Below, piece after piece: positions 5,794-50,397 of a DNA stretch of 64,000 nt. The DNA comes from Clostridiaceae bacterium BRH_c20a. GTDB taxonomy: Bacteria; Bacillota; Peptococcia; Peptococcales; BICA1-8. Numbering within the stretch: the first letter of the stretch is position 1; each line of letters begins with the position of its first letter. Made by a program: the position numbers and the translations under genes. Location of the stretch: NCBI GenBank assembly GCA_000961765.1, contig LADT01000026.1, positions 88,541 through 152,540 of the forward strand, written 5' to 3'. A model generated the notes under the pieces. That model searched no databases and was not told where the DNA came from. It was given only the letters and a program-made list of their open reading frames with translations.

Positions 5794-5809
5794 TGTAACT
5801 AAAGCTACA
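5794..5809. promoter_or_regulatory. TGTAAC-N4-GCTACA box upstream of ASST gene 2
   Basis: One mismatch from the perfect palindrome at 1560..1577. Confidence 0.35.
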
Positions 5810-5981
5810 ATTGAAACCATACCTAATGCTTTATAATTAGAATAAGCGCTAAAAAATAAATGGTATAAAAATAAATAATGAAATAGTTGTAGATGAGATA
5901 CTTTTTTAAAAAAGCAGTGTTATTTAAGAAGATTTCAAAAATAATAAGTTTAACTAGGCATTATAATTAAAAAAATAAGGA

Positions 5982-32794: not shown

Positions 32795-34888
32795 TTATGC
32801 CTTTCTTAGTGGTAAAGACAAATAAAATGTGGTTTTATCTCCAGGTTTACTTGTTACCCAAACCCGACCATTGTGATATTCAACTATTTCTTTGGTAATG
32901 GATAGACCCAATCCGCTACCTTCACTAGAAGTTCTTGATTTAGAACCGGTAAAAAAGCGATTAAATACATGAGGAAGGTCTTCTGTGGCAATTCCTAACC
33001 CGTTATCTGTAAATTTTATTATAATCTCATTGTTATCCATATTATTTAAATAATTTTCCAAGGTAATTGTGCCTCCTTTAGGCGTATGTTTAATGGCATT
33101 ATAGATGATGTTGGCAAAAGCCCTATCAATCAGGTCAATATCCACCTCCACAGAGAGGCAATTGGGAGAGTTGGGACCCTTATTTGCTGAAATGAGTTTA
33201 AAATTTATTCCAGCCATCTGTACATCAAGAAGATATTTCTCATAAACATTCTGCATCAACATTTCTACCGACATTACTTGAACGTCTAAGTTCGTTTTTC
33301 TAGATTCTAGTTGAGTTAAGTCGAAAAGGTCTTGGGTTAAATGGTTCAGACCATTTATTCTTTCTCTAATTCTCTTTAGATATCTTTCTAGTTGTACCGG
33401 ATCCTCAACTAATCCGTCTAAAATAGCGTTAACGTATCCTAAAATGGAGGTCATTGGGCTGCGTAAGTCATGTGATATGTTAGTTAGTAAGTCAGTACGT
33501 GATTTCTCCATCTTTGATAAGTCCTGGTTTGCCTTCTCCAATTTTTTATTAGAGTTTTCCAAGGCAATGGTTCTCACCAAAACTTTTTTTTCCAGACTTT
33601 CATTTAATTGCTGAAGGCTTACAGTCATCTCTTCGATTCTTGAAAAAGCTCTGGTAAACTTCCTAGATAAAATAATAGACTGTGAAAATACAAAGATTAA
33701 GAACCCCCAAGAAGAAACGCTGATTGTAGCAACGCTTTCACTAAAATAAATTAGCGAACTTTCATAAAGAATATCATTTATTATAGTGCTAACAAAAAAA
33801 ACGACAGCTAAACCTATAGCAATTGCTCCTTCTTTCTTTCTTAAGCATGCTAAGACCAAGGTATAAAGTAAATATATTATAATAATAATTATGTAAATTT
33901 GGTAGATAACGTTATATTGACCATAAACTTTGACAGGGTTGAGTAATACTAGAGCACTAAAGATAATGGCAGAAACTATAGCCATCTGAATTACTTTGAT
34001 TGAAATTTCTCTAGATAGAATAGATTTCAAATATAAAATAAACACAGGGGTACCTAAATAAAAAGTTAGGTATTCTACCTTAAGTGCCGTTTCCCAATTC
34101 AAATTAGGGAATAACTGAAAAATAAACATTTTCCCTACAAAAAGGGCTCTGAGGCCGATCATAGTGGAAAAAGTTCCAAAATAAAGATTAGACCTTTCTT
34201 TTCTTCTATAAAAATAGAATATCAAGTGGTAAATTCCTACTACAAAAAGGCTACCAAAAACAAAAAAATCAAAAGCAAAATGCCAATTTTCTATAACTTT
34301 GATTTGATTTTCCGTTCCTAAATTAAAATTTTCAAGTATTCCTCCATGGAGGTGGTGGAAGTTTGATATTTGAATGATCAATTCTAAATTCCCTTGACCA
34401 GAATTAAAAAAGACAAGATTTGGTCGGAATTGAGGAATGGATTTATCAGCCCTTTTACCCACTACACCGTTAGTAGCTAACAACTCATTATTTACCCACA
34501 GCCTATAAGCCGTCGAAATTTTCGGGATCTCAAGACCCAGCGATTCATTTCGCTGGTTAGTGGTTATTAGTAATCTATAGGTTGCAAAGCCGTCTCCTAT
34601 TAGTTTAGAGTCCATAGTATATTTATTCCACGCATCAGGTACCTTAATAAATTCTGGTTTTAGAGAGTTATTGTCAGAAAAGCCTTCTGGGTTAACAAGC
34701 TGTTTCCAATAAAATTCCCAAGTGCCTGCTAGGTTAACTATCCCGTCTTTTTCCAAATCCCATAATGAAAGATCAAGTTTGCCTTGGTTTGCAACCGGCA
34801 TTTTTTTTTGATTTGCTTGCGTACAACCTGTTATTAAAATTAATATGAAAATTATTAGAAAATATTGTAGTGTTTTATTTGCTCTCAT
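32795..34888 (-). CDS. Sensor histidine kinase with 7TMR-DISM extracellular and 7-TM domains; lipoprotein-type signal
   Basis: Lipobox LITGC, an extracellular beta-rich domain, 7 TM helices, HisKA SHDLRSPMTSI, and HATPase DNGLGI/GSGLGLSI. Confidence 0.85.
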   Translation of the reverse strand: MRANKTLQYFLIIFILILITGCTQANQKKMPVANQGKLDLSLWDLEKDGIVNLAGTWEFYWKQLVNPEGFSDNNSLKPEFIKVPDAWNKYTMDSKLIGDGFATYRLLITTNQRNESLGLEIPKISTAYRLWVNNELLATNGVVGKRADKSIPQFRPNLVFFNSGQGNLELIIQISNFHHLHGGILENFNLGTENQIKVIENWHFAFDFFVFGSLFVVGIYHLIFYFYRRKERSNLYFGTFSTMIGLRALFVGKMFIFQLFPNLNWETALKVEYLTFYLGTPVFILYLKSILSREISIKVIQMAIVSAIIFSALVLLNPVKVYGQYNVIYQIYIIIIIIYLLYTLVLACLRKKEGAIAIGLAVVFFVSTIINDILYESSLIYFSESVATISVSSWGFLIFVFSQSIILSRKFTRAFSRIEEMTVSLQQLNESLEKKVLVRTIALENSNKKLEKANQDLSKMEKSRTDLLTNISHDLRSPMTSILGYVNAILDGLVEDPVQLERYLKRIRERINGLNHLTQDLFDLTQLESRKTNLDVQVMSVEMLMQNVYEKYLLDVQMAGINFKLISANKGPNSPNCLSVEVDIDLIDRAFANIIYNAIKHTPKGGTITLENYLNNMDNNEIIIKFTDNGLGIATEDLPHVFNRFFTGSKSRTSSEGSGLGLSITKEIVEYHNGRVWVTSKPGDKTTFYLSLPLRKA

Positions 34889-35293
34889 GATAAATTACCT
34901 TCCAAAAGTATTAATTTTTATTAAACCGTTCTTTCCCTATTACCTTTCTTGGCCTCCGTAACAATTATAAAAATAGCAAAAGGGCTATAGTATCAAATTT
35001 CTACATTATTCTATATTATCCTACACAATTAGAAAATAATTTTGTGGGATATTATTACATAAAGAAAAGGAAAAACGAATTAAATTATTTTTATGAATTT
35101 TGATATTTAGAATAGAGATAAAGAATGAGACAAATTTAGAATATTATGAAATAATATGCAAATATATGTGGAAAAATGTTTAAAACATGGTATATTATAT
35201 TTATATTTTATGTATATTTCATTTTAATAAATGCAAAAAACTTGATAGAATTTGTAAGCTGAATTTATGTCAAAACAAATAAAGGTGGGAAAT

Positions 35294-38200
35294 ATGGAAC
35301 TACCAGAAATTATCAAGTTAGATAAAAGCAAATGCCAACACTGTTTAGCTTGTTTACTTGTATGTCCGGTAAAACTATGTAATGTTGTGGAACCTGATGG
35401 AATCTCGGTAAATCCGGAACTTTGTATTGGCTGTGGCGAATGCATTCGAGCCTGCAGAGAAAAGGGCCATAATGCCCGGTCAGGGATTGATGATTTTCCC
35501 GATTTTTTGCAAGATATTCAATCGGGTGTCCCGATAGGAGTGCTTGTTGCCCCCGCTGCGGCAGTGAATTACAACGGATTGTTTCCAAAGATGATTACTG
35601 CTTTAAGAAATGCGGGAGTTAAGTATGTGTTTGATGTTAGTTTTGGAGCGGAAATTGCTACCTACCAATATTTAAAACTGGTTCAATCCGGAGCTCAAAA
35701 ACCTATAATTGCTCAGCCTTGTCCTGCTGTTGTCAGCTTTATAGAAATTTATCATTCAGATTTAATCCCTTACCTTGCTCCTACACATTCACCTCTTTTG
35801 GCTGCTGCCAAATGGGTTAAAAGTCAATCAATGTACAAGGATCTTAAGCTTGCTTTTCTAGGTCCGTGCTTTGCAAAGCGTAGGGAAGTACACGATCCGA
35901 ATACTGGGGGAATGGTATCATATAATATTACTTATCAATCTTTGGATAAATATTTTCAAGAACGGGGCATTTCATTAGAGTCACTAGAACCATCAGGCTT
36001 TGATTCGCCTGAAGCGGAGCGCGCGGTGGTCTTCTCGCAACCGGGAGGATTAACTGAAACCTTTCGCCGTTTTGGTTTCCCGTTTAAAAAGGTTGACATT
36101 CCTAGGATTGAGGGACCCCATGAGATTTATATAAAATACTTGCCTGAACTTAAAAATAACATAAGAGATGGTAAGGTTCCAATTTTGGTTGACATTCTTA
36201 ATTGTCAATACGGATGCAACATCGGCCCAGCTGTTACCCATAATCATACCCATTTTGAAATTGACATGATTATGGATAAACGCAGAGAAGAACAGGTTAA
36301 AAAGCACAATACATCTGATGAAGCAAATCCAAGTTTGTTTGAAGAATACTTTAAATGGATAGATGATGAAAATATTGAATTTTCCAGAGATTATTCAGAT
36401 AAATCATCAAATAGATATTTGCGTGAACCTTCTGAAGAAGATGAGGAACTAACTTGGCAACGTATGCATAAGCTTACCCGGGAAGAACGGGAGATTAATT
36501 GTGCTTCATGTGGCTATGGCAATTGCCGGAGCATGATGACAGCAATAGTAAATCAACTCAATCATATCGAGAGCTGCAAATATTACCTGTTCAAAGAAAA
36601 TGAAATCAATCTGGAAAAGGTGGAGGCTCAGGCAAAAGAGCTCCAAAAATCCAGAGATGAAATAGCTGATTGGAATAGGGTGCTGGAAAAAACAGTGGCC
36701 CAAAGGACTTTGGCCATAACGAATTTATTAAATAATGCCGGCCAGGGTTTCCTAACTTTTGGGGAAAACATGCGGGTTGACAATGAATACAGCTCTGAGT
36801 GTAGAAGGATATTTGCCCAGGATATCGGTGGCCTTATATTTTCCGAATTAATTTTTCCACAGAGCAAACAAGATATAAACTTTCTTAATTCCCTTATTGA
36901 AGAAATTTTTAAACAAGATGATGATGATGTAGTGGCAGAACTTTACCTGCCGTTATTGCCTGAAAAAATCGATATTGGCAACAAGCAAATTGAGATAAAC
37001 TATAAAATTATTAACAATACCAATTTAGAATCCAAAAAATGCATGGTGATTTTAACAGATGTTACTGACAAGCGGCTATTAGAGAATCAAATGAAGAATG
37101 AAAAAAATGCTTTAAAAATGGTCGTGAAGGTCGTAGTAAGTTATAACGAGTTTATTCAAATATTAAAAGACTACCAGAATTTTTGCGACACACTATTGTA
37201 TGAGATTATTAACAGTGAGAAGTCCTTAGAAAATAAAGTTGTGGAAATTTTTAGGTATATCCATACATTTAAAGGAAACTTCAGCCAGTTTTATATGACT
37301 GGTATTACACAATCACTGCATGACTTCGAGAGTGAAATTTCAACCTTTAGTAATCAGCTTGAACTGGGTTGGGGTAAGGATGAATTAATTCGATTTATAG
37401 AGCGATTCAATATAAACTCCTGGTTGGAGGAAGATGTAAATCGGTTAGAAGAGGTTTTAGGTACTGAATTCTTTTCAAGCGAGGATATGCTAACAATTAG
37501 CAAGGTAAAGCTTATAGAATTGGAGAAAAAAGTAAAGTCTATTCTACCGCCTGCTGAATGTAAAATTTTTGTTGCAGAGCTTAGAAATTTGCGGTATAGA
37601 CCTTTTAATTCACTCCTTGAATCTTATCAAGATTATGTAATGGAGTTAGCCCAGCGGTATCATAAACAAATTTATCCTGTTGAATTTAAGGCAGAAAGAA
37701 TTTTGGTTGACCCAGATCGGTTTAACGATTTTGCTAGAAGCTTAGTACATATTTTTCGTAATGCTGTGGATCATGGTATAGAAACAGCGTACCAAAGGAT
37801 AGAGAGCGGAAAAGAAGAATATGGCAGTATTAAATGTAATATTTGCAGAGTGGACAATAAAGTTATTTTAACTATCATAGATGATGGCAGAGGAATTGAT
37901 TGCAATATACTAAGGAGTAAAATAATTGAAAAAGGCTTTTTAAACCGGGAGGAAACAATTGGTATTTCCGAAGATGAAGTTGTTAATTTCATATTTAAAG
38001 ATTCCTTTTCTACAAAGGATGAGATAACGGACTTATCGGGGCGAGGTGTTGGCCTTGGTGCCGTGAAAAATGAATTGCAAAAGCTTGGGGGATCGGTTGC
38101 AGTAAAAAGTTTTCCTGGTCAGGGTACGGAATTTAGGTTTACTATTCCCATAGAAGGCGAACAATTTTGGGGACTAGCTATCTCGGAATTAATTAACCCG

Positions 38201-38659
38201 CTTATTGACACAACTTGTAATTATCTCAATAACCACATAGGCTTAGAAATAAAATCTACCGAATGTTTTGATGTTAGTAAACCGGAAAAGGTGGTACTTT
38301 ATAAGTTTACTGCGTTTATAACAATAAAAGGTACCATAGAGGGGCTATTTCTTATTAGCATGGAAGAACAAGTTCTGAAAATGGTAGTAAGGAACTTCGT
38401 CCTGGGCAACTTGACAGAAGATGAGGAAGCAGAATATATGGAAGACGTTCTGGCAGAATGTACAAACACAATTTTGGGGAACTCTCTCAAACTATTTCCT
38501 GGTCTTACAGAAATGATTGTTATCGATTCTCCTGTCTCCATTTTTTCTAAAAATGCCTTGGTGAAATATCAGGAATCAATGATTTCAACCTGTAATATTC
38601 AAACCCATGTTGGAAAACTCTGTCTTAGTTTGGTAGTTCCACGAAAAATAGAAGAATAA
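35294..38659 (+). CDS. [FeFe]-hydrogenase-like sensory domain fused to PAS, HPt, a CheA-type HATPase and a CheX/CheC-like domain
   Basis: Two CxxCxxCxxxC ferredoxin motifs. H-cluster-type motifs IAQPCPAV, LGPCFAKRRE and ILNCQYGCNIGP. Cx2Cx4Cx16C at nt 36500..36577. HPt IHTFKGN. N-box HIFRNAVDHGIE, with DDGRGID and GRGVGLG. C-terminal LAECTNTILGNS. AAGGTGGG RBS before the ATG at 35294 (the ORF is open from 35267). Confidence 0.8.
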   Translation: MELPEIIKLDKSKCQHCLACLLVCPVKLCNVVEPDGISVNPELCIGCGECIRACREKGHNARSGIDDFPDFLQDIQSGVPIGVLVAPAAAVNYNGLFPKMITALRNAGVKYVFDVSFGAEIATYQYLKLVQSGAQKPIIAQPCPAVVSFIEIYHSDLIPYLAPTHSPLLAAAKWVKSQSMYKDLKLAFLGPCFAKRREVHDPNTGGMVSYNITYQSLDKYFQERGISLESLEPSGFDSPEAERAVVFSQPGGLTETFRRFGFPFKKVDIPRIEGPHEIYIKYLPELKNNIRDGKVPILVDILNCQYGCNIGPAVTHNHTHFEIDMIMDKRREEQVKKHNTSDEANPSLFEEYFKWIDDENIEFSRDYSDKSSNRYLREPSEEDEELTWQRMHKLTREEREINCASCGYGNCRSMMTAIVNQLNHIESCKYYLFKENEINLEKVEAQAKELQKSRDEIADWNRVLEKTVAQRTLAITNLLNNAGQGFLTFGENMRVDNEYSSECRRIFAQDIGGLIFSELIFPQSKQDINFLNSLIEEIFKQDDDDVVAELYLPLLPEKIDIGNKQIEINYKIINNTNLESKKCMVILTDVTDKRLLENQMKNEKNALKMVVKVVVSYNEFIQILKDYQNFCDTLLYEIINSEKSLENKVVEIFRYIHTFKGNFSQFYMTGITQSLHDFESEISTFSNQLELGWGKDELIRFIERFNINSWLEEDVNRLEEVLGTEFFSSEDMLTISKVKLIELEKKVKSILPPAECKIFVAELRNLRYRPFNSLLESYQDYVMELAQRYHKQIYPVEFKAERILVDPDRFNDFARSLVHIFRNAVDHGIETAYQRIESGKEEYGSIKCNICRVDNKVILTIIDDGRGIDCNILRSKIIEKGFLNREETIGISEDEVVNFIFKDSFSTKDEITDLSGRGVGLGAVKNELQKLGGSVAVKSFPGQGTEFRFTIPIEGEQFWGLAISELINPLIDTTCNYLNNHIGLEIKSTECFDVSKPEKVVLYKFTAFITIKGTIEGLFLISMEEQVLKMVVRNFVLGNLTEDEEAEYMEDVLAECTNTILGNSLKLFPGLTEMIVIDSPVSIFSKNALVKYQESMISTCNIQTHVGKLCLSLVVPRKIEE

Positions 38660-38688
38660 TCACTAGTTAGTATTTTTGGAGGTGTAAA

Positions 38689-39441
38689 ATGGCTCGTATT
38701 TTAGTTGTTGATGATTCGGCCGTAATGAGACTTAACATATTGCACACATTAACTCAAGCAGGTCACGAAATAGTAGCCCAAGCTTCGGACGGAAGACAAG
38801 CCTACAATCTATATAAAACACATTCCCCCGATATTGTTACGATGGATATTACAATGCCAAAAGTCAATGGAATTGAAGCTGTCAATGAGATAATAACAAA
38901 GTTTCCTGAGGCAAAAATAATCATGGTTAGTGCATTGGATCAAAAACATATGGTACTAGAGGCTCTTAAATGTGGAGCTAAGCATTATATTATTAAGCCT
39001 ATTAACCCTGAAAAACTTGTGGCTGTAATTAATAAGGTTTTGGGGATTGAACCCCAAACTACAGATACTATCAAAAGTGAAACGGTAAAGGAAATGGAAC
39101 CTATAAAAGCACAAGTTGAAGAAGAACCCGCAAATCCGTTTATCATTAAAAACATAAATTCAGTATTTAATATTGAAATTACAAAATCGTTTTCAATAGA
39201 TAATGCTGGGTCTCTTCTACAGGCCACCCAGGGTCTTCTTTATGTCCAACCCTTAAATGTGGTGATTGACTTTGGAATAATTGAGGTTTTTTCAATAGAC
39301 TTATTAAATAAAATTGCAGAAATAACTAACCTTATCCTGGGTGCAAACGGTAAAGTAACTTTAACTTCGCAAAACAAGAAATTTATCAATTTTGTTAAAG
39401 AAAAGCATATTAGTGGATTATCCAAATTATTTATTGAGTAA
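38689..39441 (+). CDS. Response regulator: CheY-like receiver plus a STAS-like C-terminal domain
   Basis: ILVVDDS...VTMDITMPKVNG...VSAL...KP receiver motifs. The C-terminal ~100 aa resemble an anti-sigma-antagonist/STAS fold (tentative). Confidence 0.8.
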   Translation: MARILVVDDSAVMRLNILHTLTQAGHEIVAQASDGRQAYNLYKTHSPDIVTMDITMPKVNGIEAVNEIITKFPEAKIIMVSALDQKHMVLEALKCGAKHYIIKPINPEKLVAVINKVLGIEPQTTDTIKSETVKEMEPIKAQVEEEPANPFIIKNINSVFNIEITKSFSIDNAGSLLQATQGLLYVQPLNVVIDFGIIEVFSIDLLNKIAEITNLILGANGKVTLTSQNKKFINFVKEKHISGLSKLFIE

Positions 39442-39524
39442 TTTCATGTATCCTTACCGTTAATTTAGTATGTTTTAGCAGTATTATTTACTATCTCCAT
39501 TGGAGGTAGTTTTTCTTTGGGGGG

Positions 39525-40469
39525 ATGTCTGGGGACGGTCCTTTGACACAACATAATGAAAATATGATAGAATAGCTCTAGGGGGTGATCTAATGGCAAG
39601 GACGAGTAGACAAATAAGTCAGACTGGTTTTTACCATGTAATGATGCGGGGGAATGAGAAAAGGGAAATTTTTAAAGATGACAGGGACCGGGAGAAGCTA
39701 TTAGGTATCATTAGGGAAAAGAAAAAAGAAGTAGTTTTTGACCTATATGGATATTGCTTAATGAATAACCATGTTCATTTATTAATTAGGACAGAAAATA
39801 TTGCAGGTGTAATGAAAAGAATTAATACCAGTTATGCTTGCTTTTTTAATAAGAAATATAATCGAGTAGGCCATTTATTTCAGGACAGGTTTAAGAGTGA
39901 GACTATTGATGATGAAAAACATCTTATGGCAGTTGTAAGATATATACATAATAATCCTTATCAGGCGGGTATGGTAAGTGATATCTTAGAATATCCATGG
40001 AGCAGTTATATTGATTATGTAAGTAAAAGGGATAATAAGAATAATGACCTGGTAGATACCTGGGAAATACTCTCTTTATTTTCCCAGGAGAAAAACAAAG
40101 CTATTGAATATTTCAAGGAATTTTCCAACAAGGAGAATGACGATCAATTTATAGATATAAAGGAAGATGATTCTGACGTGTTTAGTTTTCAGGAGACGGA
40201 TAACTCTTTGGTGGTGGAAAAATACTTAAAGGACAATAACCTATCAATTACTGATTTAAAGACTGATTGTAATAGGCATTATCTGCAGGAAGTCATATTA
40301 AACCTACGAAAAAAAACTCAGCTGTCAATTCGAGGAATAGCCAATCTTTTGGGATTTAACAGAGGAATTGTGCAAAGAATGGTATCACAAAAACCTGTTG
40401 CCCCAGAGGATGAGGGGCAAGAAAAATGAGTATTCATGTCAAGCGTGTCAAAGGACCGTCCCTAGACAC
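39525..40469 (+). mobile_element. RAYT/IS200-like (Y1 transposase) unit bounded by 25-bp inverted GGGACGGTCCTTTGACAC ends
   Basis: Left end 39525..39549 is aTGTCTgGGGACGGTCCTTTGACAC. Right end 40445..40469 is GTGTCAAAGGACCGTCCCtAGACAc. There are 2 mismatches. Confidence 0.75.
39593..40429 (+). CDS. REP-associated tyrosine transposase (IS200-like Y1 HUH) with a C-terminal HTH
   Basis: HUH motif NHVHLLI and YIHNNP tyrosine motif. The C-terminal LSIRGIANLLGFNRGIVQRMV is HTH-like. Confidence 0.85.
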   Translation: MARTSRQISQTGFYHVMMRGNEKREIFKDDRDREKLLGIIREKKKEVVFDLYGYCLMNNHVHLLIRTENIAGVMKRINTSYACFFNKKYNRVGHLFQDRFKSETIDDEKHLMAVVRYIHNNPYQAGMVSDILEYPWSSYIDYVSKRDNKNNDLVDTWEILSLFSQEKNKAIEYFKEFSNKENDDQFIDIKEDDSDVFSFQETDNSLVVEKYLKDNNLSITDLKTDCNRHYLQEVILNLRKKTQLSIRGIANLLGFNRGIVQRMVSQKPVAPEDEGQEK

Positions 40470-41372
40470 GCGTTGGTCAACCGCCGGGATACTCTTGTTA
40501 AAGATGGTATTCGGCTGAAAAACGGTTTGCATGAGCAGGTTTCTGTTGCTTACCCAAGCTACCATAGATTTTTTTGTGATATTGACCGGAAGACAGCGCT
40601 GTATTTTTGGAAACACTATCCGTCACCCATCTATCTGCGGAATAAACCCATTGATGAACTATTTGAAGAATTTAAAGCGATTGCGTCCAATACAACGAAA
40701 AGTAAGATTGAATTGATATTTGAATGTGTCCATAATGATGGTGATACGATACGGGAATATCAGGAATCAAGGGATTTTATCACCAAAAGCCTTGCACGTT
40801 GTCTTGAACAGCAAAAGGAAGAAATAGCCCTGGTCGATTGTGAAATCGAAAGGATGCTGAGCTATTTTGACTATAAACTAACAACAATACCGGGCGTAAA
40901 TATTGCCACAGCAAGCAAGCTGATTGCCGAAATCGGTGACATACGCCGCTTTCCAAGTGCTGATAAACTGGCTCGTTATGCAGGAATTGCACCAATAAAG
41001 TTTAGTTCCGGCGGCAAAGGCAAGGAGGAAAGCTCAAAACAAGGTAACCGTGAGTTGCACGGATTATTCTATTTTCTGGCGGTATCCATGGTCACGGTTC
41101 CAAAGACAGGAAAGCCGAATCAGCCTATATTTTACGCCTATTATCAGCGTAAAATCAGCGAAGGCAAAACGAAATCACAGGCGTTGGTCTGTATTATGCG
41201 CCGATTAGTAAACATTGTTTACGGCATGATGAAGAACAAGACGGAGTATCGTCCCTTTGTAGTTGAGGATCATGTTGTAGAAGAACAGTAATGATTGTTT
41301 TAGCACAGCGTTGAAATTATACCATAATTTTTGAAATTAAATACGGATTCCCAACCTTAATCTGAGATATAG
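40470..41372 (+). pseudogene. IS110-family recombinase, 3' two-thirds only (copy A), plus its short right end
   Basis: Starts abruptly after the RAYT right end. Has ...IPGVNIATASKLIAEIGDIRRFPSADKLARYAGIAPIKFSSGGKG...GNRELH (Tnp_20-type Ser domain) with the stop at 41291. ORF 40368..41291 is a chimera with the RAYT 3' end. Confidence 0.8.
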
Positions 41373-41711
41373 ATTCTTCCACCTGAGGGCGCGGGTGAGG
41401 CTAGTAACGCTTTCAAATATGACTTGCTTAAGAAAGACCTTAAGTACACTGAAAAGTATGGCTTGGAGGCAAGAAAAGAGTTACCTGACGGAAGAATCCG
41501 CTATTATGGAGAAATTCAACCAGCATCAAAACCAGGGGAAATGGTTGGTAGAAGGATTGTACAGGAGCTTAATCCTGCCAATGGAAATGTGAGAGCATGG
41601 AACGAAACTCTAGATGGTGCGGGTAGAATAAGGCAGGTTAGACCGCAACTAGGTCCTAATAAAACGCATTATACATTTGACCAATTCGGAAATTATACAG
41701 GGAAGTGGTGA
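41373..41711 (+). CDS. Orphan polymorphic-toxin C-terminal domain (family not recognised)
   Basis: The frame is open from 41373 directly after the IS110 right end. There is no credible own start (the ORF track uses TTG at 41424). Followed 4 nt later by a small acidic ORF, matching toxin/immunity geometry. Confidence 0.45.
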   Translation: MLPPEGAGEASNAFKYDLLKKDLKYTEKYGLEARKELPDGRIRYYGEIQPASKPGEMVGRRIVQELNPANGNVRAWNETLDGAGRIRQVRPQLGPNKTHYTFDQFGNYTGKW

Positions 41712-41715
41712 TAAC

Positions 41716-41994
41716 ATGCAGAGCCCCACAATTGAAGAGCTCATTATGAAGCTACAGCAGGTATTAGAAGGGGGACTTAGTCGAGAAGAGGTTTCAGATT
41801 GGGCTATGAAAGCCTCGGAAGTATATGAACGTGAGAGTTCGCTGAGTCAGCATGAGATTTCCCTTTGGAAATGTCTTGACGTTGTTGGTGGTATTGACTT
41901 AAAAGACTCACCATCGGAGTACCTTCACAATGAGCAAGATATTAAAGGGTGGATAACCAAGTTTAAGCAAATGAAGGATTCAAACCAATCCTAA
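41716..41994 (+). CDS. Putative cognate immunity protein
   Basis: ATG at 41716, 4 nt after the toxin stop and preceded by GGAAGTGGTG. 92-aa acidic helical protein. Confidence 0.5.
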   Translation: MQSPTIEELIMKLQQVLEGGLSREEVSDWAMKASEVYERESSLSQHEISLWKCLDVVGGIDLKDSPSEYLHNEQDIKGWITKFKQMKDSNQS

Positions 41995-42036
41995 GTAATC
42001 ATGCTGAAGGGAGTAAATAGGGGTCAGCAACGCCCC

Positions 42037-42569
42037 CTATATGTTCCTTGACAAATGCGGATCCTGCAGTTTATAAACTCCAGTTACGACTCCATCGGCG
42101 AAATCTCGACCCTGAGAGAAACCGTTCCCCGACCCGCATTGCGGGGCGGTGTGAGCCGGAGCGGGGGTGCTTTGCAACCCCGCTCCTTTAACCTGCATCA
42201 TTTTCGACCCCATGGTTCACCCTGTGATTGAGGGGATGAAGCCACATTTTGGGGCTGCATTTTGAAGGGAAAGGTTTTTTCGCAGAAGTCGCCAAATCCG
42301 GTTTCATTTTTTCCGAAGGGACAAACACCTTATGGAGGCAGCTAAAACGCAACACAGGGGCACACGGTGGCTCACGGCGTTAAGTATTTGAACGCCGGAT
42401 AACGAGTATATTTATGACTGCTGGTAGCGAACGTATAAATCGGCTTGTACCCCATGGTTCATGGTGGACCATAGATTTACAGGAAATTCTGTTCTATGAT
42501 AAAATTTGTGCCAGAGGGGGTTTAAGGGGGTAAGAAATTATCCCGGAAAAATCCCTCATTTTCTTTTTC
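42037..42569 (+). ncRNA. Candidate large structured RNA in the 5' leader of IS110 copy B
   Basis: ORF-free and GC-rich, with hairpins at 42129..42149, 42158..42186, 42220..42234 and 42375..42397 that covary with copy C. A GC stem plus T-run lies at 42514..42569. The ends are not defined. Confidence 0.45.
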
Positions 42570-42787
42570 TGCATATGACAGTTTTGATACAAACGCAGAA
42601 ATGACTTGCAATACTTTTCAGACAGAGTTAACATCACACAACAATAGTGAAAATAACCTGTTTGAAACTGTAAGTCTTGCGGTAGATAGGCTGTCGCGCC
42701 CTTGCGGGTCTGAAAAGACTAACGCTATCATCTGAGGTTGCCGGTACTTGGGCTTTATGTGGATAGCAGGACAAAAGAAGGGATGAT

Positions 42788-43051
42788 ATGCAGAGAAGAG
42801 AAAATTACCTCTATGTCGGTATGGACTTGCATAAGGACACCCATACCGCTGTTCTGGTAAATTGTTGGAATGAGAAATTAGACGTGATTGTTATTGAAAA
42901 CAAGCCCAGCGAGTTTAATAAGCTGGCAAAACGAGTAAACAGGATGGCTGTAAAGCTGGGACTATCCCCAATTTACGGTTTGGAAAACGCCTACGGCTAC
43001 GGCAGAAGCCTTGCTGTCTGGCTGATTGAAAAAGGGTACATAGAAAAGTAA
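42788..43051 (+). pseudogene. IS110-family recombinase, N-terminal DEDD domain only (copy B)
   Basis: YVGMDLHKDTHTAV...GLENAYGYGRSLAVWL. The reading frame ends where a 120-bp repeat begins (43048). Confidence 0.8.
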
Positions 43052-43167
43052 ATCTTGGGGTCAGGCTCACTATTAAACATAACATTAAAATTGAAGTACT
43101 AAAAAGCACCTATAAAACCTATGACGGTTATCTAAAGAGATAGCCGTCTTTTTTTAGAAGAAGCAAT
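43048..43167 (+). repeat. 120-bp direct repeat, copy 1 (identical to 45658..45777)
   Basis: Base-for-base identical by inspection. Contains the terminator-like hairpin GACGGTTATCT-aaag-AGATAGCCGTC followed by T7. Confidence 0.95.
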
Positions 43168-43490
43168 GTGTCTAGGGACGGTCCTTTGACACAGCGAAAT
43201 AGAAATATGATTGAATACTCTGGGAAGCTATTAGATATCAGAAGGGAAAAGAAAAAGGAAGAAGTTTTTGACATATATGCATATTGCTTAATAGATTAAC
43301 CATGTTCATTTATTAATAAAGGATTATAAGAAGAATAACATGGTAGATACCTTGTTAAAGAAAGATTGTAATAGGTATTATCTGCAGGAAGGCATAGTAA
43401 ATCTAAGAATAAAAACTCGACTGTCAATTCGAGAAATAGCTGATTATTTGGAATTGAACAGAGGGGTTGTGCAAAGAGTGGTGTCACAAC
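43168..43490 (+). pseudogene. Degraded second copy of the RAYT unit (left end retained, internal deletions, no right end)
   Basis: GTGTCTAGGGACGGTCCTTTGACAC at 43168..43192. Collinear remnants (…HVHLLI…, …DCNRYYLQE…LSIREIADYL…) have lost the start codon and central region. Confidence 0.75.
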
Positions 43491-43674
43491 TATCTTCCTC
43501 AATCAAAACAGGGCTTCCGGGTAAGCAGAAACTTACCCCCGGAGGAAATGGCAAAGGGCAAGAAAAATCTAACGCTAAAGGCGGCGGCAAACCTGCCAAA
43601 ATCTTTGCCATTGACCCGATAGCAAGTGTATTTGACAAAGATAGACCGGTGATGATATTCACTAAAGGTGATAA

Positions 43675-44475
43675 AGGCGGCGGAAACTCCAATGGTGGAG
43701 GGAATTCCGGTGGAAATTAAAGCTTCCACTATTAGAAGAAACAATTGAACTGCCGGCTTATCTTACGGAACCCACCCGGTACGTAAGCTACACCTATGAT
43801 GAATCAGGCAACCGTACTGGTAGGACTACCGATCAGGGAGAAGTCAGCTATACCTATGATAATGGCAACCGCCTCATCAAAGCAGGTGAAACAGCATACT
43901 ATTATGATGATAACGGCAATCTGGAATTCAAAGAAACAGCAGACGGAGGAACAGAATACCGATATGATGCCGCCAATCGACTGACAGCAGTATACTTTGC
44001 CGATGGAACAGATTTAAAATACCATATAGGAGAAGATAAGGTGCTAGCCCGGAAGATGTTTGGCTATCACGGACAAAAAGAACAAGGCAAACCGACCCTG
44101 CAGACCAGAGGCGGGTTGATGTACTACTCCTTTGATGCTTTGGGCAATGTAACAGATCTCACAGACAGGACAGGGGAGATAACAGCCCAGTAGTTCCGGT
44201 TTGACGCATTTGGGGGCATGTATGCCGGAACCTTGGGCCCCTATAATCATATGGGCTTGACCGGCAAGGATTATGATGCCGAGAGCGGTTTCATAGACTT
44301 CGGTTTCCGCTGGTATGATCCCCAGGCAGGCAGGTTCACTCAGCCCGACACCTATAAAGGGAACATTTTTAATCCCCTGACCCAGCATCCCTATGCCTAT
44401 GTAGGCAATAACCCAGTGTTATGTTTTTTAGGAGGTAAGAACAAAAACATGGTGAACAGCAACAAATCGGTATAG
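43675..44475 (+). pseudogene. Rhs/YD-repeat core fragment with an in-frame TAG (44191) and a truncated 3' end
   Basis: YTYDESGNRTG...YTYDNGNRL...YYYDDNGNL...RYDAANRL...DALGNVTDLTD...YDAESGFIDFGFRWYDPQAGRF...YVGNNPV, all in one frame. Confidence 0.75.
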
Positions 44476-44555: not shown

Positions 44556-44954
44556 CTATCTCTCAACTTCTTCATCTTCTTCATCTGCCAAAATATTGAC
44601 TTCCTCGACTTCGCGATATAAAATTTCATCAATTTGATTTAAAAGCTCAGGTAAACTTTTTGTAATCGTTCCCCAAAGCACCGCAAAATCAATGTTTTCA
44701 TAGTCATGAACAATTTTATTTCTCATGCCTTTGATACTTTTCCAAGGAATATAAGAATATTCTTCCTGAGTGCTTAAACCTATATCCTTTGCCAGTTCAC
44801 CGATTTGGGAAATGGTAAAAGCACAAGCAGAAATTGTTTTTTTATCATTCATAAACTGTTCAAAGGAAAGTCCATATGTATACTGAGCTACATCGTTGAT
44901 GTATCCGCTTATTTTTTGCAGGATAATCCTATCCTTACCTATCATATAAGACAA
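44556..44954 (-). CDS. hepT: HEPN-domain (DUF86/HepT-like) toxin
   Basis: Rx4H motif GMRNKIVHDY. Overlaps the upstream MNT gene by 20 nt. Confidence 0.85.
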   Translation of the reverse strand: MSYMIGKDRIILQKISGYINDVAQYTYGLSFEQFMNDKKTISACAFTISQIGELAKDIGLSTQEEYSYIPWKSIKGMRNKIVHDYENIDFAVLWGTITKSLPELLNQIDEILYREVEEVNILADEEDEEVER

Positions 44955-45243
44955 TACCCTCCCGTTCTACTGCGGAGCAAATGGTCGCATTCCTGCTCAA
45001 TTCGGATATTTCAAACAAATCTACACGTTTGTTAAGTTGTGTTGTAATATCCTCTAGCACACCATAGAAAGCCATATTTAAAAGCTCACCCTTGCTGTCA
45101 ATAACAATATCAATATCGCTTTGATCTGTTGCGTTACCTTTTGCATAAGACCCAAACAATATGGCGCGATATACAGGGGCGGCCTCAAAAACGGGACGGA
45201 GCTTTGATCTTATTTCATTGATTTGATATATTTTTTGCTCCAT
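44935..45243 (-). CDS. mntA: MNT-type nucleotidyltransferase antitoxin (MntA-like)
   Basis: GSYAKGNATDQSDIDIV (GSx10DxD) motif. The start at 45243 follows GGTGAG; the ORF is open to 45261. Confidence 0.85.
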   Translation of the reverse strand: MEQKIYQINEIRSKLRPVFEAAPVYRAILFGSYAKGNATDQSDIDIVIDSKGELLNMAFYGVLEDITTQLNKRVDLFEISELSRNATICSAVEREGIVLYDR

Positions 45244-45262
45244 ATTCTCACCACTTTGCATT

Positions 45263-49293: not shown

Positions 49294-50397
49294 GTGAGTG
49301 GTAAGTTAAGGGAGTTTTACCCGGGAGGTAATACTTCATATGGTTTTTATTCTTTCTACGACTTCATAATTGATAAGGATGCAACCCGTATCTTTTGTAT
49401 CAAAGGGGGACCTGGGGTAGGCAAGTCAACCTTTATGAAGGCTATCGGCCAGGTTATGCTGGAAAAAGGCTTTGATGTTGAACTTCATAACTGCTCTTCC
49501 GATAATAACTCTATTGATGGTCTAGTTATCCCCGCATTAAAGATTGCTTTGATTGATGGTACAGCACCCCACATAGTTGACCCTAAAAATCCTGGTGCTG
49601 TAGATGAGATTATCCATCTGGGGGATTATTGGAATGAAGAGGGAATACGGGCAAATAAGTCAGAGGTACTTTCCTCAAATGCCAGAGTCGGCCGACTTTT
49701 TAAGATTGCTTATAGCAGTCTTAAGGAAGCTAAAGTTGTCCATGATGAATGGGAAAGCTACATTACAGAGAGCATGGATTTTGCCCCAGTTAACAAGATT
49801 ACCCGCTATGTTGCCAACGAAGTTTTTGCTGATGTAGAACCTGACTTTAGCCGAGTTGCCAAGGCCAGGCACTTATTTGGGAGTGCTATAACACCCAAGG
49901 GCGCTACTAATAAACTGGATAGTATTTTATTAGAAGTTGAAGATGTATACATTCTTCGAGGGGAGCCAGGAACAGGCAAGTCTAGCTTTATTGGAAAAAT
50001 GTTAGAACGAGCTCAGGAAATGGGGATTGATACGGAAATATATCATTGCCCTTTAGATCCTGAGAAATTTGATTTTTTAGTTATTCCCAAGCTGAAAGTT
50101 GCATTTATAAATGGAACTGACCCCTTAAAGGTAAATTTAAGTAAGTTTACGACAACAGAAATTGATTTTGACCAGTTTCTAGATCCCGATAAACTAGATA
50201 CCTATGAAAAAGAAATTGATTCCTGCAAAGAACGTTTCTGGGATGCATACCACCGAGGGATTGAATATATCAGTCAAGCTAAAAAGGTACATGATGAGAT
50301 GGAGGAATACTATATTCCTAATATGAATTTTGCAGCCATTAATGCCAAAAGAGACGAAATATTAAAGAGGATTTTAAAATATGCGAAAGAATTTTAG
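49294..50397 (+). CDS. Double P-loop NTPase of unknown function
   Basis: Two Walker A motifs (GGPGVGKST, GEPGTGKSS) in a 367-aa protein. Confidence 0.6.
   Translation: MSGKLREFYPGGNTSYGFYSFYDFIIDKDATRIFCIKGGPGVGKSTFMKAIGQVMLEKGFDVELHNCSSDNNSIDGLVIPALKIALIDGTAPHIVDPKNPGAVDEIIHLGDYWNEEGIRANKSEVLSSNARVGRLFKIAYSSLKEAKVVHDEWESYITESMDFAPVNKITRYVANEVFADVEPDFSRVAKARHLFGSAITPKGATNKLDSILLEVEDVYILRGEPGTGKSSFIGKMLERAQEMGIDTEIYHCPLDPEKFDFLVIPKLKVAFINGTDPLKVNLSKFTTTEIDFDQFLDPDKLDTYEKEIDSCKERFWDAYHRGIEYISQAKKVHDEMEEYYIPNMNFAAINAKRDEILKRILKYAKEF

What the first reader, a model, noticed from the sequence alone, without database searches (positions are those of the whole stretch)
35294..39441. Putative H2-sensing phosphorelay: [FeFe]-hydrogenase-like sensor fused to PAS-HPt-CheA-type kinase-CheX, paired with a REC-STAS-like regulator
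SEEN, in one 1121-aa protein:
- Two CxxCxxCxxxC ferredoxin motifs.
- An H-cluster-type domain with the cysteine-bearing motifs IAQPCPAV, LGPCFAKRRE and ILNCQYGCNIGP.
- An exact Cx2Cx4Cx16C motif (nt 36500-36577).
- A coiled coil and a PAS-like segment.
- An HPt His (IHTFKGN).
- A CheA-type ATP-binding domain (HIFRNAVDHGIE, DDGRGID, GRGVGLG).
- A C-terminal CheX/CheC-like domain.

The next gene encodes a CheY-like receiver with a ~100-aa STAS-like tail rather than a DNA-binding domain.

ESTABLISHED: group C (sensory, HydS-type) [FeFe]-hydrogenases carry the extra Cx2Cx4Cx16C cluster motif and are fused or linked to signalling domains. A histidine-kinase-linked subgroup has been defined bioinformatically. 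Very few have been characterised, and none with this output to my knowledge.

INFERENCE:
- The first Cys of the catalytic TSCCP motif is absent (QPCP), which fits sensing rather than turnover.
- The built-in CheX-like phosphatase and STAS output suggest a self-resetting H2/redox signal feeding a partner-switching (anti-sigma-type) pathway.
Basis: partly seen in the sequence, partly recalled or inferred. Interest (0 to 1): 0.7.

Follow-up and report, generated by a model that had tools for sequence, protein, structure and literature searches.

The report
Hydrogenase-like sensor on CheA-type kinase
A two-gene operon encodes a probable hydrogen (or redox) sensor built from an [FeFe]-hydrogenase domain fused to a chemotaxis-type (CheA-like) kinase with its own CheX phosphatase, paired with a CheY-like regulator ending in a STAS domain; it is a new output variant of a predicted but still uncharacterised sensor class.

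Summary
The gene at 35294-38659 encodes two ferredoxin clusters, an H-domain with all four H-cluster cysteines, the Cx2Cx4Cx16C motif exactly at 36500-36577, a CheA-P1-type HPt (H666-T-x-K-G), a CheA-type ATP-binding domain and a CheX domain with an invariant D-x3-E-x2-N site. The next gene (38689-39441) encodes a CheY-like receiver plus a tail that models confidently as a STAS fold. Only the "PAS-like" label failed every sequence test.

About 47 full-length homologs occur in Thermincola, Phosphitispora, Desulfosporosinus and related Bacillota. The REC-STAS gene follows in 15 of 16 distinct loci. In the sixteenth, hydG-hydE-hydF sit directly upstream and the regulator is REC-GGDEF.

The sensor half belongs to the group C clade, shared with HisKA- and MCP-fused relatives. 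The kinase-CheX half is a widespread cassette found behind many other sensor domains, and I found no description of it in the literature.

The output is probably not classical anti-sigma partner switching. The STAS lacks a conserved phosphorylatable serine, no anti-sigma gene lies in the window, and related loci repeatedly carry c-di-GMP enzymes.

Verdict: a real, coherent signalling module and a new variant of a known kind. H2 sensing is inferred, not shown.

The parts
34889..35293 (+). AT-rich upstream intergenic region with weak sigma-70-like promoter matches and an RBS (AAAGGTGGG, 35283-35291). It is shared divergently with a 7TMR-DISM histidine kinase gene on the minus strand.
   Evidence: Promoter matches are no more frequent than in shuffled sequence. 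No Rfam element was found.
35294..38659 (+). Sensor kinase gene (1121 aa from the ATG preceded by an RBS; the ORF opens at 35267). Residue numbers below follow the 1130-aa ORF.
35333..35455 (+). Two ferredoxin-type CxxCxxCxxxC motifs (C23-C33, C53-C63), the N-terminal accessory [4Fe-4S] clusters.
   Evidence: Pfam Fer4 and Fer4_10. All 8 Cys are invariant in 30 homologs. Coordinates.
35543..36229 (+). H-domain (Fe_hyd_lg_C, residues 93-321). Ligands C152, C201, C313 and C317 are kept. The CpI C299, M353 and M497 equivalents are Pro, Gly and Leu.
   Evidence: E 3.7e-36. Alignment to solved hydrogenases. Invariance.
36500..36577 (+). Cx2Cx4Cx16C motif (C412, C415, C420, C437), the C-terminal [4Fe-4S] site typical of putative sensory [FeFe]-hydrogenases.
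   Evidence: (PF04060). PMC13104023 for its occurrence in groups C and D.
36584..36724 (+). Conserved linker or signalling helix (residues 440-486), shared with HisKA-type hydrogenase-kinases.
   Evidence: hhalign probability 97.5 to P0060 residues 431-476. Helical or coiled-coil character was not tested.
36725..37102 (+). Unassigned conserved domain (residues 487-612, NLLNNAGQGF...EYSxEC...ILTDVT). It is part of the transmitter cassette.
   Evidence: Highly conserved across the cassette family. No Pfam or PDB similarity.
37148..37486 (+). HPt domain of CheA P1 type (about residues 628-740). The phospho-accepting His666 is at nt 37262-37264 in FRYIHTFKGN.
   Evidence: CheA P1 structures 1tqg, 2ld6, 3kyi; 29/30 hit Pfam Hpt; H666, T667, K669, G670 invariant.
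37487..38155 (+). Partial P3-like hairpin plus CheA P4-type ATP-binding domain (residues 741-963), with N, G1 and G2 boxes.
   Evidence: T. maritima CheA 4xiv/1b3q, E 4.5e-34.
38306..38641 (+). CheX domain (residues 1014-1125) with the catalytic-type motif D1060-x3-E1064-x2-N1067 (nt 38444-38467). It occupies the place of CheA's P5.
   Evidence: E 1.9e-11, above cut-off. 30/30 members hit CheX. Motif invariance. Weak alignment to CheC-domain structure 3iic.
38689..39441 (+). Response regulator gene (250 aa) with its own GGAGGTG RBS, 29 nt after the kinase stop codon.
38698..39030 (+). CheY-like receiver domain with D8, D9, D53 (nt 38845-38847), S81 and K103 intact.
   Evidence: E 4.3e-29. for invariance. 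(50% identity and TM 0.96 to T. maritima CheY).
39136..39423 (+). STAS-fold output domain (residues 150-245) after a disordered acidic linker (120-149). It has no conserved phosphorylatable Ser.
   Evidence: Tail-only model pLDDT 91.9. Fold search returns RsbS, RsbV, SpoIIAA, TM1081 and SLC26 STAS. 13/39 family members hit Pfam STAS. Profile against PDB.
39490..39520 (+). Terminator-like hairpin (9 bp stem) followed by a T-run, which ends the two-gene operon.

Best explanation
This is a self-contained two-gene signalling operon.

The first protein is a cytoplasmic sensor kinase. Its input is a non-catalytic, group-C-type [FeFe]-hydrogenase module: two ferredoxin clusters, an H-cluster site, and a C-terminal [4Fe-4S] site.

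Proposed mechanism:
1. H2 binding or oxidation at the H-cluster (or, less specifically, the redox state of its clusters) changes the conformation of the C-terminal cluster region (inferred).
2. That change passes through a conserved linker helix into a CheA-derived transmitter: an unassigned conserved domain, a P1-type HPt, a short P3-like hairpin and a P4 ATP-binding domain (inferred).
3. The P4 domain phosphorylates His666 of the HPt, which passes the phosphoryl group to Asp53 of the adjacent CheY-like regulator (inferred).
4. CheA-type kinases have no phosphatase activity of their own. The C-terminal CheX domain, which sits where CheA carries its CheW-like P5, dephosphorylates the regulator. 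This makes the protein a bifunctional kinase/phosphatase with fast reset (inferred).
5. Phosphorylation of the receiver changes what the regulator's STAS domain can bind, so the output is protein-protein rather than DNA binding (inferred).
6. The most likely partner class is c-di-GMP-turnover enzymes (GGDEF or HD-GYP proteins). This is the least certain step.

Shown by sequence: the domain content, intact catalytic and ligand residues, the operon structure, and conservation of the gene pair. Everything about signal, phosphotransfer and output is inferred.
For: Sensor:
- Fe_hyd_lg_C at E 3.7e-36, PF04060 and Fer4 hits.
- All four H-cluster Cys plus K358 and E361 equivalents align to solved enzymes. 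C299, M353 and M497 are replaced by P, G and L. These are the same three positions altered in the characterised sensor TmHydS (PMC10055695).
- These residues and the 12 accessory-cluster Cys are invariant in 30 homologs.
- hydG-hydE-hydF sit immediately upstream of the 70%-identical ortholog in L006. This argues that the family receives a real [2Fe] subcluster.
- Sensor halves cluster with HisKA-REC-fused and MCP-fused relatives, which are the HydDB C1 and C2 concepts (PMC5037454).

Transmitter:
- HPt is of CheA P1 type.
- P4 matches CheA at E 4.5e-34 and 4.8e-47.
- CheX is above the Pfam cut-off, with D-x3-E-x2-N invariant.
- The cassette recurs behind PAS, 7TMR-DISM, dCache, GAF, CHASE2 and other inputs, so it is a transmitter rather than part of the sensor.

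Partner:
- REC-STAS lies directly downstream in 15 of 16 distinct loci. It is also paired with non-hydrogenase cassette kinases in Wukongibacter and Paenibacillus.
- The receiver is CheY-like with an intact active site.
- The STAS fold is confirmed.

Output hint:
- An orthologous REC is fused to GGDEF in L006.
- Orthologous GAF-GGDEF lies immediately upstream in 7 loci and a GGDEF downstream in 2.
- HD-GYP genes lie nearby in L001, L007, L008 and L025.

Operon:
- Ribosome-binding sites, a 29-nt gap between the genes, and a terminator-like hairpin.
Against: - No experiment exists on any member of this family. H2 responsiveness of group C proteins is itself only proposed (PMC5037454).
- In the group D model TamHydS, the C-terminal cluster is not reduced by H2 (PMC13104023). 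The redox-relay step is therefore doubtful, and I leave the coupling mechanism open.
- This 64-kb window has no hydEFG (tblastn), and no GGDEF, HD-GYP, anti-sigma or hydrogenase gene was found by tblastn with relatives' genes or by Pfam scans of the larger ORFs. Neither maturation nor the output partner can be shown for this genome.
- The region after the regulator is a mobile-element island, so the native context may be lost.
- No canonical P3 dimerisation domain is detected: 1 of 30 members gives a weak hit.
- The conserved domain at 487-612 is unexplained.
- GGDEF genes are abundant in these taxa, and I did not measure a background rate for adjacency.
Confidence: 0.6

Rival explanations
1. 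The output is the one the reader proposed. The phosphorylated REC-STAS protein acts as an anti-anti-sigma factor in a partner-switching cascade, binding an RsbW/SpoIIAB-type anti-sigma kinase and so releasing an alternative sigma factor.
For: - The STAS fold's best structural matches are RsbS, RsbV, SpoIIAA and other anti-sigma antagonists.
- In the closest named relatives (L001, L008, L009) a block lies 3-10 kb downstream that encodes an HD-GYP-HATPase_c_2 protein, a SpoIIE-type phosphatase, FapA and a single-domain STAS.
- L006 has a HAMP-HATPase_c_2 gene about 7 kb upstream.
Against: - The position of the phosphorylatable Ser of SpoIIAA and TM1081 is Ile here and variable across the family.
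- No HATPase_c_2, PP2C or sigma gene was found in the window.
- The RsbW-like domain in relatives is fused to an HD-GYP phosphodiesterase rather than standing next to a sigma factor. That again points to c-di-GMP.
- Most loci (L002, L004, L007, L011-L023) have no such block next to the pair.
Confidence: 0.2
2. The hydrogenase-like domain does not sense H2. It carries only Fe-S clusters (no [2Fe] subcluster), or it uses its clusters to report ferredoxin or cellular redox state, O2 or CO.
For: - The proton-relay Cys is absent.
- The window has no maturases.
- H-cluster motifs were reported as hard to find in group C1 proteins from Hydrogenedentota (PMC11406978).
- One family member (P0045) has lost the K358 equivalent.
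Against: - All four ligating Cys, K358, E361 and the APA and SP motifs are kept and invariant in nearly all members.
- hydGEF are directly adjacent in L006.
- TmHydS, which has analogous substitutions, binds a functional H-cluster (PMC10055695).
Confidence: 0.15
3. It is the kinase of a chemotaxis-type pathway (H2 taxis). The CheY-like regulator acts on the flagellar motor or on a canonical CheA, as the STAS protein CheS does in Sinorhizobium.
For: - The kinase core is CheA-type, it carries CheX, and the receiver is 50% identical to T. maritima CheY.
- An MCP-CheW-MCP-CheR-CheD-CheB cluster lies directly upstream in L008, with CheB also detected in L009 and a remnant in L001.
- The same sensor is fused to MCP signalling domains in Heliobacteria, Clostridia and spirochaetes.
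- CheS is a STAS protein that binds CheA (PMC12654446).
Against: - There is no P5/CheW-like domain and no P2, so it cannot join receptor arrays.
- It has its own sensor, unlike CheA (PMC10542144).
- No che genes were found in this window or in most loci.
- The regulator carries a 130-aa extension, and in one lineage this is replaced by GGDEF.
Confidence: 0.1
4. It is a working (catalytic) hydrogenase that happens to carry signalling domains.
For: TmHydS retains low H2-turnover activity despite similar substitutions (PMC10055695).
Against: - Loss of the C299 proton relay and changes at M353 and M497.
- Fusion to a complete kinase, phosphatase and HPt transmitter.
- No electron-transfer partner genes were found nearby.
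Confidence: 0.03

Closest known systems
Group C (M2f) putative sensory [FeFe]-hydrogenases: TmHydS of Thermotoga maritima and HydDB subgroup C1 'histidine kinase-linked (putative)'
   Same: - N-terminal ferredoxin clusters and an H-domain with all four ligating Cys.
- Substitutions at the C299, M353 and M497 positions.
- The C-terminal Cx2Cx4Cx16C cluster.
- Covalent or operonic link to signalling domains.
   Different: - TmHydS has a recognisable PAS domain and no kinase. Here no PAS is detectable.
- C299 is replaced by Pro here, not Ala as in TmHydS.
- Classical C1 relatives such as Desulfosporosinus orientis P0060 use HisKA-HATPase-REC. This protein uses a CheA-type HPt/P4 core plus CheX.
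CheA chemotaxis kinase (class II histidine kinase), including the Leptospira CheA-CheC/CheX fusions noted in PMC10542144
   Same: - A P1-type HPt with the H-T-x-K-G motif.
- A P4 ATP-binding domain 40-50% similar to T. maritima CheA.
- A CheY-like substrate.
- A fused CheX, as in the Leptospira F1 CheAs, which gives predicted dual kinase/phosphatase function.
   Different: - No P2, only a partial P3 and no P5/CheW-like domain.
- It carries its own sensor, whereas CheA by definition relies on chemoreceptors.
- It contains an extra conserved domain of unknown fold between the linker and the HPt.
STAS-domain signalling proteins: SpoIIAA, RsbV and RsbS anti-sigma antagonists; the Moorella stressosome (structural hits 3ztb and 3zxn); the chemotaxis protein CheS
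   Same: - The STAS fold.
- Action through protein-protein binding.
- Precedents exist for STAS in c-di-GMP control (title of PDB entry 3ztb) and for STAS binding a CheA (PMC12654446).
   Different: - Here STAS is fused behind a receiver domain. It would be controlled by Asp phosphorylation of REC, not by Ser phosphorylation of STAS.
- The Ser site is not conserved.
[NiFe] group 2b H2 sensor HoxBC with the HoxJ kinase and HoxA regulator (regulatory hydrogenase of Cupriavidus/Ralstonia); comparison from HydDB Table 1 and my own knowledge
   Same: The logic is the same: a low-activity hydrogenase reports H2 to a histidine kinase and a response regulator (PMC5037454).
   Different: - Unrelated metal site and fold.
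- Sensor and kinase are separate proteins there, fused here.
- The regulator there is a DNA-binding activator, whereas here it is REC-STAS.

Membership tests
[FeFe]-hydrogenase group C (sensory, HydS-type / HydDB C1) | H-domain homologous to the [FeFe]-hydrogenase large subunit | tested here: met
   Pfam Fe_hyd_lg_C E 3.7e-36, 125 bits against a cut-off of 22. PDB [FeFe]-hydrogenases at E 1e-18.
[FeFe]-hydrogenase group C (sensory, HydS-type / HydDB C1) | Four cysteines ligating the H-cluster (CpI C300, C355, C499, C503) | tested here: met
   C152, C201, C313 and C317 align to them and are invariant in 30 homologs.
[FeFe]-hydrogenase group C (sensory, HydS-type / HydDB C1) | Non-canonical second-sphere residues at CpI C299, M353 and M497 | tested here: met
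   Pro, Gly and Leu at these positions. The same positions are altered in TmHydS (PMC10055695).
[FeFe]-hydrogenase group C (sensory, HydS-type / HydDB C1) | C-terminal Cx2Cx4Cx16C [4Fe-4S] motif | tested here: met
   Residues 412-437, nt 36500-36577. PF04060 in 30/30 members.
[FeFe]-hydrogenase group C (sensory, HydS-type / HydDB C1) | PAS domain after the C-terminal cluster (said of group C in PMC13104023) | tested here: not met
   No PAS by Pfam, hhalign or PDB profile. The fold was not modelled, so a cryptic PAS-like fold is not excluded.
[FeFe]-hydrogenase group C (sensory, HydS-type / HydDB C1) | Fusion or operonic link to a histidine kinase (C1) | tested here: met
   HATPase_c and HPt lie in the same polypeptide. 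The sensor clade is shared with HisKA-REC fusions.
[FeFe]-hydrogenase group C (sensory, HydS-type / HydDB C1) | Placement in group C by the HydDB classifier or a tree with reference groups A-D | not testable with these tools
   Only a neighbour-joining tree with MCP- and HisKA-fused relatives was possible. No reference sequences for groups A, B or D were available.
[FeFe]-hydrogenase group C (sensory, HydS-type / HydDB C1) | HydE, HydF and HydG maturases in the genome | tested here: inconclusive
   None in the 64-kb window. hydG-hydE-hydF are directly adjacent to the ortholog in L006.
[FeFe]-hydrogenase group C (sensory, HydS-type / HydDB C1) | Binds a [2Fe] subcluster and responds to H2 | not testable with these tools
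   Needs maturation with FTIR/EPR and kinase assays.
CheA (class II chemotaxis histidine kinase) | P1 HPt domain with a phospho-accepting His | tested here: met
   H666-T-x-K-G is invariant. Profile hits to CheA P1 structures. 29/30 members hit Pfam Hpt.
CheA (class II chemotaxis histidine kinase) | P3 dimerisation domain (H-kinase_dim) | tested here: inconclusive
   The alignment to T. maritima P3-P4 starts partway into P3. Only 1 of 30 members gives a weak H-kinase_dim hit.
CheA (class II chemotaxis histidine kinase) | P4 ATP-binding domain of CheA type | tested here: met
   E 4.5e-34 to 4xiv/1b3q. NCBIfam CheA 4.8e-47. N, G1 and G2 boxes invariant.
CheA (class II chemotaxis histidine kinase) | P5 CheW-like domain coupling to receptors, and no sensor domain of its own | tested here: not met
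   No CheW hit in 30 members. The alignment to 1b3q stops before P5. The protein has its own N-terminal sensor. It is therefore CheA-derived, not a CheA.
CheC/CheX/FliY CheY-P phosphatases | CheX domain with the D/S-x3-E-x2-N active-site motif | tested here: met
   Pfam CheX at 44 bits against a cut-off of 27, found in 30/30 members. D1060, E1064 and N1067 are invariant. Activity was not tested.
STAS / anti-sigma-factor antagonist | STAS fold | tested here: met
   Tail-only AlphaFold model pLDDT 91.9. The top ~30 Foldseek hits are all STAS, with TM up to 0.77. 13/39 relatives hit PF01740. The window protein itself has no Pfam STAS hit.
STAS / anti-sigma-factor antagonist | Conserved phosphorylatable Ser at the start of helix 2 | tested here: not met
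   The aligned position is Ile here and variable in the family.
STAS / anti-sigma-factor antagonist | Cognate anti-sigma kinase, PP2C phosphatase or sigma factor encoded nearby | tested here: not met
   None found in the window by Pfam scans of the larger ORFs and tblastn with relatives' genes. They are present 3-10 kb away only in the Phosphitispora-like clade.
Response regulator receiver (CheY-like) | Receiver fold with the acidic pocket, phospho-Asp, and conserved Ser/Thr and Lys | tested here: met
   Response_reg E 4.3e-29. D8, D9, D53, S81 and K103 are invariant. TM 0.96 to T. maritima CheY.

The most novel reading that the evidence does not exclude
The kinase-CheX cassette together with its REC-STAS partner defines a large, undescribed class of receptor-independent, CheA-derived bifunctional sensor kinases. 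They combine kinase activity with an in-cis CheX phosphatase and act through a STAS protein-protein switch, often on c-di-GMP enzymes. In this member the input is H2, so environmental H2 would set c-di-GMP-controlled lifestyle (biofilm, aggregation, syntrophy) in subsurface Bacillota.
Probability: 0.3. Interest if true: 0.75.

Novelty: new variant of a known kind. Interest (0 to 1): 0.6.

Why it matters
Whether group C and D [FeFe]-hydrogenases really sense H2, and how they signal, is an open question. Only a few have been studied. The latest work on TamHydS refutes the favoured redox-relay idea and names identifying interaction partners as the missing step (PMC13104023).

In this family the partner is not missing. 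Sensor, kinase, phosphatase and a cognate regulator sit in two adjacent genes. H2-dependent autophosphorylation and phosphotransfer can therefore be measured directly with purified proteins.

Separately, the transmitter half shows that the CheA kinase core has been reused as an ordinary sensor-kinase module. A fused CheX restores the phosphatase activity that CheA lacks. There are more than 150 clusters at 50% identity behind many different sensors, and I found no description of this class in the literature.

The recurring GGDEF and HD-GYP neighbours suggest a link between H2 and c-di-GMP. If that link is real, it would be relevant to syntrophic and subsurface communities.

Tried and rejected
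- PAS domain. Five tests were all negative: Pfam on 30 full-length members, Pfam on the isolated 478-625 segment of 10 members at E<=10, hhalign against the PAS-bearing relative P0089, and PDB profile searches with 12 and 31 sequences. Both structure-prediction jobs went to the regulator, so the fold of this segment was not modelled.
- Whole-regulator fold search. It returned only receiver-domain hits, so a tail-only model was needed.
- Maturases, GGDEF and the partner-switching block in the window. tblastn with the L006 HydG, HydE and HydF, the L002 GAF-GGDEF and the L001 downstream genes found nothing except a STAND NTPase homolog at 49300-50391.
- Riboswitch or other RNA in the 400-nt leader. 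There is no Rfam hit anywhere in the window and no tRNA.
- Promoter scan. The matches are no more frequent than in shuffled sequence.
- CheX against solved structures by sequence. Only a marginal hit to a CheC-domain protein, so the call rests on Pfam and motif invariance.
- Literature. I found no paper combining a CheA or CheX architecture with an [FeFe]-hydrogenase, and none using the phrase 'CheX domain' together with histidine kinase. The library lacks most subscription journals.
- Considered and rejected: a Nar1-like protein (the ligating Cys are all present), a canonical CheA (no P5, and it has its own sensor), and a multi-step phosphorelay (only one His and one Asp site in the pair).
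- The third homologous-protein search was left unused. Looking for HydF in relatives would not settle the question for this genome.

Full report
**What is there.**
Window 35267-38659 (+) is one open reading frame of 1130 codons, followed after 29 nt by a 250-codon ORF at 38689-39441. AAAGGTGGG lies just upstream of that ATG, and all homologs align from residue 10. The second gene has its own GGAGGTG site. A 9-bp hairpin with a T-run follows at 39490-39520. The unit is therefore a compact two-gene operon. Residue numbers below follow the 1130-aa ORF.

**Checking the observation: the kinase.**
Pfam finds these domains:

| Domain | Residues | E-value |
|---|---|---|
| Fer4 (two motifs) | 23-33, 53-63 | best hit 5.9e-07 (47-63) |
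| Fe_hyd_lg_C | 93-321 | 3.7e-36 |
| PF04060 'FeS' | 410-439 | 5.2e-05 |
| Hpt | 655-691 | 0.046 (weak) |
| HATPase_c | 824-963 | 2.4e-16 |
| CheX | 1014-1103 | 1.9e-11 |

- NCBIfam matches CheA over the ATP-binding region at 4.8e-47.
- The Cx2Cx4Cx16C motif lies exactly at nt 36500-36577.
- Alignment to solved [FeFe]-hydrogenases pairs IAQPCPAV with TSCCP, LGPCFAKRRE with MPCxxKxxE, and DILNCQYGCNIG with ExMxCxxGC.
- All four H-cluster ligands are therefore kept. The CpI C299, M353 and M497 positions are Pro, Gly and Leu. These are the three positions reported as altered in the characterised sensor TmHydS (PMC10055695).
- The weak HPt hit is real. 29 of 30 family members hit Pfam Hpt. A family profile finds CheA P1 structures, including R. 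sphaeroides CheA3 P1 with a near-identical FRAVHTFKGN.
- The ATP-binding domain matches T. maritima CheA P3-P4 at E 4.5e-34. The alignment starts partway into P3 and ends before P5.
- In an alignment of 30 full-length homologs (52-77% identity), every functional residue is invariant:
  - the 8 ferredoxin Cys
  - C152, C201, C313 and C317
  - C412, C415, C420 and C437
  - H666, T667, K669 and G670
  - the N, G1 and G2 boxes
  - D1060-x3-E1064-x2-N1067 of CheX

**Checking the observation: the PAS-like label.**
The one item I could not confirm is the 'PAS-like segment' (about 487-612).
- No PAS model hits any of 30 members.
- None hits the isolated segment at E<=10.
- hhalign to a PAS-bearing relative is negative.
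- Profiles of 12 and 31 sequences find nothing in the PDB.
- The segment is nevertheless the most conserved part of the transmitter (NLLNNAGQGF, EYSxEC, ILTDVT).

**The regulator.**
- The receiver is CheY-like: 50% identity and TM 0.96 to T. maritima CheY. D8, D9, D53, S81 and K103 are invariant.
- The window protein's tail has no Pfam hit, but 13 of 39 relatives hit STAS, best E 2.2e-5.
- A tail profile's best PDB matches are TM1081, SpoIIAA and TM1442.
- A tail-only AlphaFold model (pLDDT 91.9) returns almost only STAS structures: RsbS, RsbV, SpoIIAA, TM1081 and SLC26 STAS, with TM up to 0.77.
- The Ser that anti-sigma kinases phosphorylate in SpoIIAA-type proteins aligns to Ile here and is variable in the family.

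**Relatives and context.**
- About 47 full-length homologs share the architecture. In species-representative genomes they occur only in Thermincola, Phosphitispora, Desulfosporosinus, Gracilibacter and unnamed Bacillota MAGs.
- Among 16 distinct loci, REC-STAS lies immediately downstream in 15.
- In the sixteenth (L006, a Thermincola MAG, 70% identical kinase), hydG, hydE and hydF lie directly upstream and the regulator is an orthologous REC fused to GGDEF.
- An orthologous GAF-GGDEF gene lies immediately upstream in 7 loci, and a GGDEF gene just downstream in 2.
- HD-GYP genes are nearby in several loci.
- The Phosphitispora-like clade also has an MCP-CheW-CheR-CheD-CheB cluster upstream. Downstream, at 3-10 kb, it has an HD-GYP-HATPase_c_2, SpoIIE, FapA and STAS block.
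- None of these was found in the window. Its downstream side is an island of IS200-like and IS110 transposase genes, RHS fragments and a HepT/MNT toxin-antitoxin pair, with raised G+C.

**Modularity.**
- A neighbour-joining tree of sensor halves puts CheA-CheX-type and HisKA-HATPase-REC-type proteins in one intermingled clade, sister to heliobacterial and then clostridial MCP fusions. All have the same Pro, Gly/Ser and Leu triad.
- Homology to the HisKA type continues through the linker helix at 440-486 and then stops.
- Conversely, the segment 440-1130 is a cassette. A search of 1.84 billion representative proteins finds more than 150 clusters that match its full length at E<1e-108, always at the C-terminus. 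The N-terminal inputs include PAS, 7TMR-DISM, HAMP, dCache, GAF, CHASE2, REC and periplasmic-binding domains.
- REC-STAS regulators follow such cassette kinases, with no hydrogenase domain, in Wukongibacter and Paenibacillus.
- The operon therefore joins a known sensor module to a widespread transmitter-and-regulator pair for which I found no description.

**How it most likely works.**
Shown: the domain content, intact sites, operon structure and conservation of the pair. Inferred:
1. H2, or cluster redox state, alters the sensor.
2. The conserved linker and the unassigned domain gate the CheA-type core.
3. P4 phosphorylates H666, which phosphorylates D53 of the regulator.
4. The CheX domain supplies the phosphatase activity that CheA-type kinases lack. 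The protein thereby becomes bifunctional, like the DHp-based paralogs.
5. Phosphorylated REC changes what the STAS domain binds.

[quoted passage not shown] For the output I favour c-di-GMP enzymes over anti-sigma partner switching, for three reasons: the REC-GGDEF replacement, the conserved GAF-GGDEF operon partner, and the missing phospho-Ser. This is the weakest step, and nothing in the window tests it.

**Comparison with what is known.**
- The survey of CheA architectures notes CheA-CheC/CheX fusions only in Leptospira F1 CheAs, and it treats four core domains as invariable (PMC10542144). This protein lacks P5 and P2 and has its own sensor, so it is CheA-derived rather than a CheA.
- I found no paper on this architecture.
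- NCBI names the Phosphitispora ortholog only '[Fe-Fe] hydrogenase large subunit C-terminal domain-containing protein'.

**Verdict.**
This is a real and coherent feature. The term 'phosphorelay' and the anti-sigma output are not supported. It is a new variant of a known kind. Interest is moderate to high because the fusion makes the open question of H2 sensing by group C enzymes directly testable, and because it exposes a large uncharacterised class of CheA-derived sensor kinases.

Noticed in passing
window 39593-43720: Directly after the operon lie an IS200-like Y1 transposase gene (39593-40429), an IS110-family transposase C-terminal part (40368-41291), an IS110 N-terminal fragment (42788-43051), and a second partial copy of the Y1 gene's C-terminal tail (43340-43720). 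G+C rises to 0.41, against 0.33-0.36 around it. The native downstream context seen in relatives is absent here.
   Followed up: partly
window 44556-45261 (-): A HepT-like (HEPN ribonuclease) and MNT nucleotidyltransferase toxin-antitoxin pair with overlapping genes.
   Followed up: partly
window 41424-41994, 44218-44475, 45812-47320: An RHS-repeat protein (45812-47320), plus short ORFs that read like RHS or polymorphic-toxin tips and immunity genes. Pfam hits only the RHS repeats.
   Followed up: partly
window 49294-50397; L001 8350-9489: A STAND/AAA NTPase 53% identical to the gene that sits just upstream of the sensor kinase in Phosphitispora. Together with the REC-ANTAR regulator (56120-56716, -), this suggests a rearrangement or inversion around the mobile-element island relative to that genome.
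   Followed up: partly
window 32795-34888 (-): A divergently transcribed 7TMR-DISM/HisKA/HATPase_c sensor kinase with no adjacent response regulator. 7TMR-DISM is also one of the inputs found on the kinase-CheX cassette elsewhere.
   Followed up: no
window 11832-14243 (+): An 803-aa fusion of a sugar-nucleotidyltransferase, a hexapeptide-repeat domain and a phosphoglucomutase/phosphomannomutase domain. It lies inside a glycogen/alpha-glucan cluster (GT4/GT5 synthase, phosphorylase, GH57 branching enzyme, alpha-amylase, 4-alpha-glucanotransferase, ROK kinase; 10.5-23.4 kb).
   Followed up: no
window 1838-7874: Two arylsulfotransferase (ASST) genes flank a Na+/sulfate-type symporter gene.
   Followed up: no
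L007 12659-19227: One metagenomic locus holds both hydrogenase-kinase types. The CheA-CheX type and its REC-STAS are followed by a CheX-like gene, a REC, a GGDEF, a GAF-HD-GYP, and a second, classical Fe_hyd-FeS-HisKA-HATPase-REC sensor with its own REC.
   Followed up: partly
P0045 and P0097 (homologs): Two relatives have lost H-cluster residues: P0045 has the K358 equivalent as Ala and the C299 equivalent as Gln, and P0097 has the C355 equivalent as Ser. Some members may therefore no longer bind the cofactor.
   Followed up: no
L017 8001-13071 and L011 8001-13026: In two genomes the tblastn match to the kinase spans about 5 kb instead of 3.4 kb. This suggests an insertion, a split gene, or a second adjacent paralog.
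   Followed up: no
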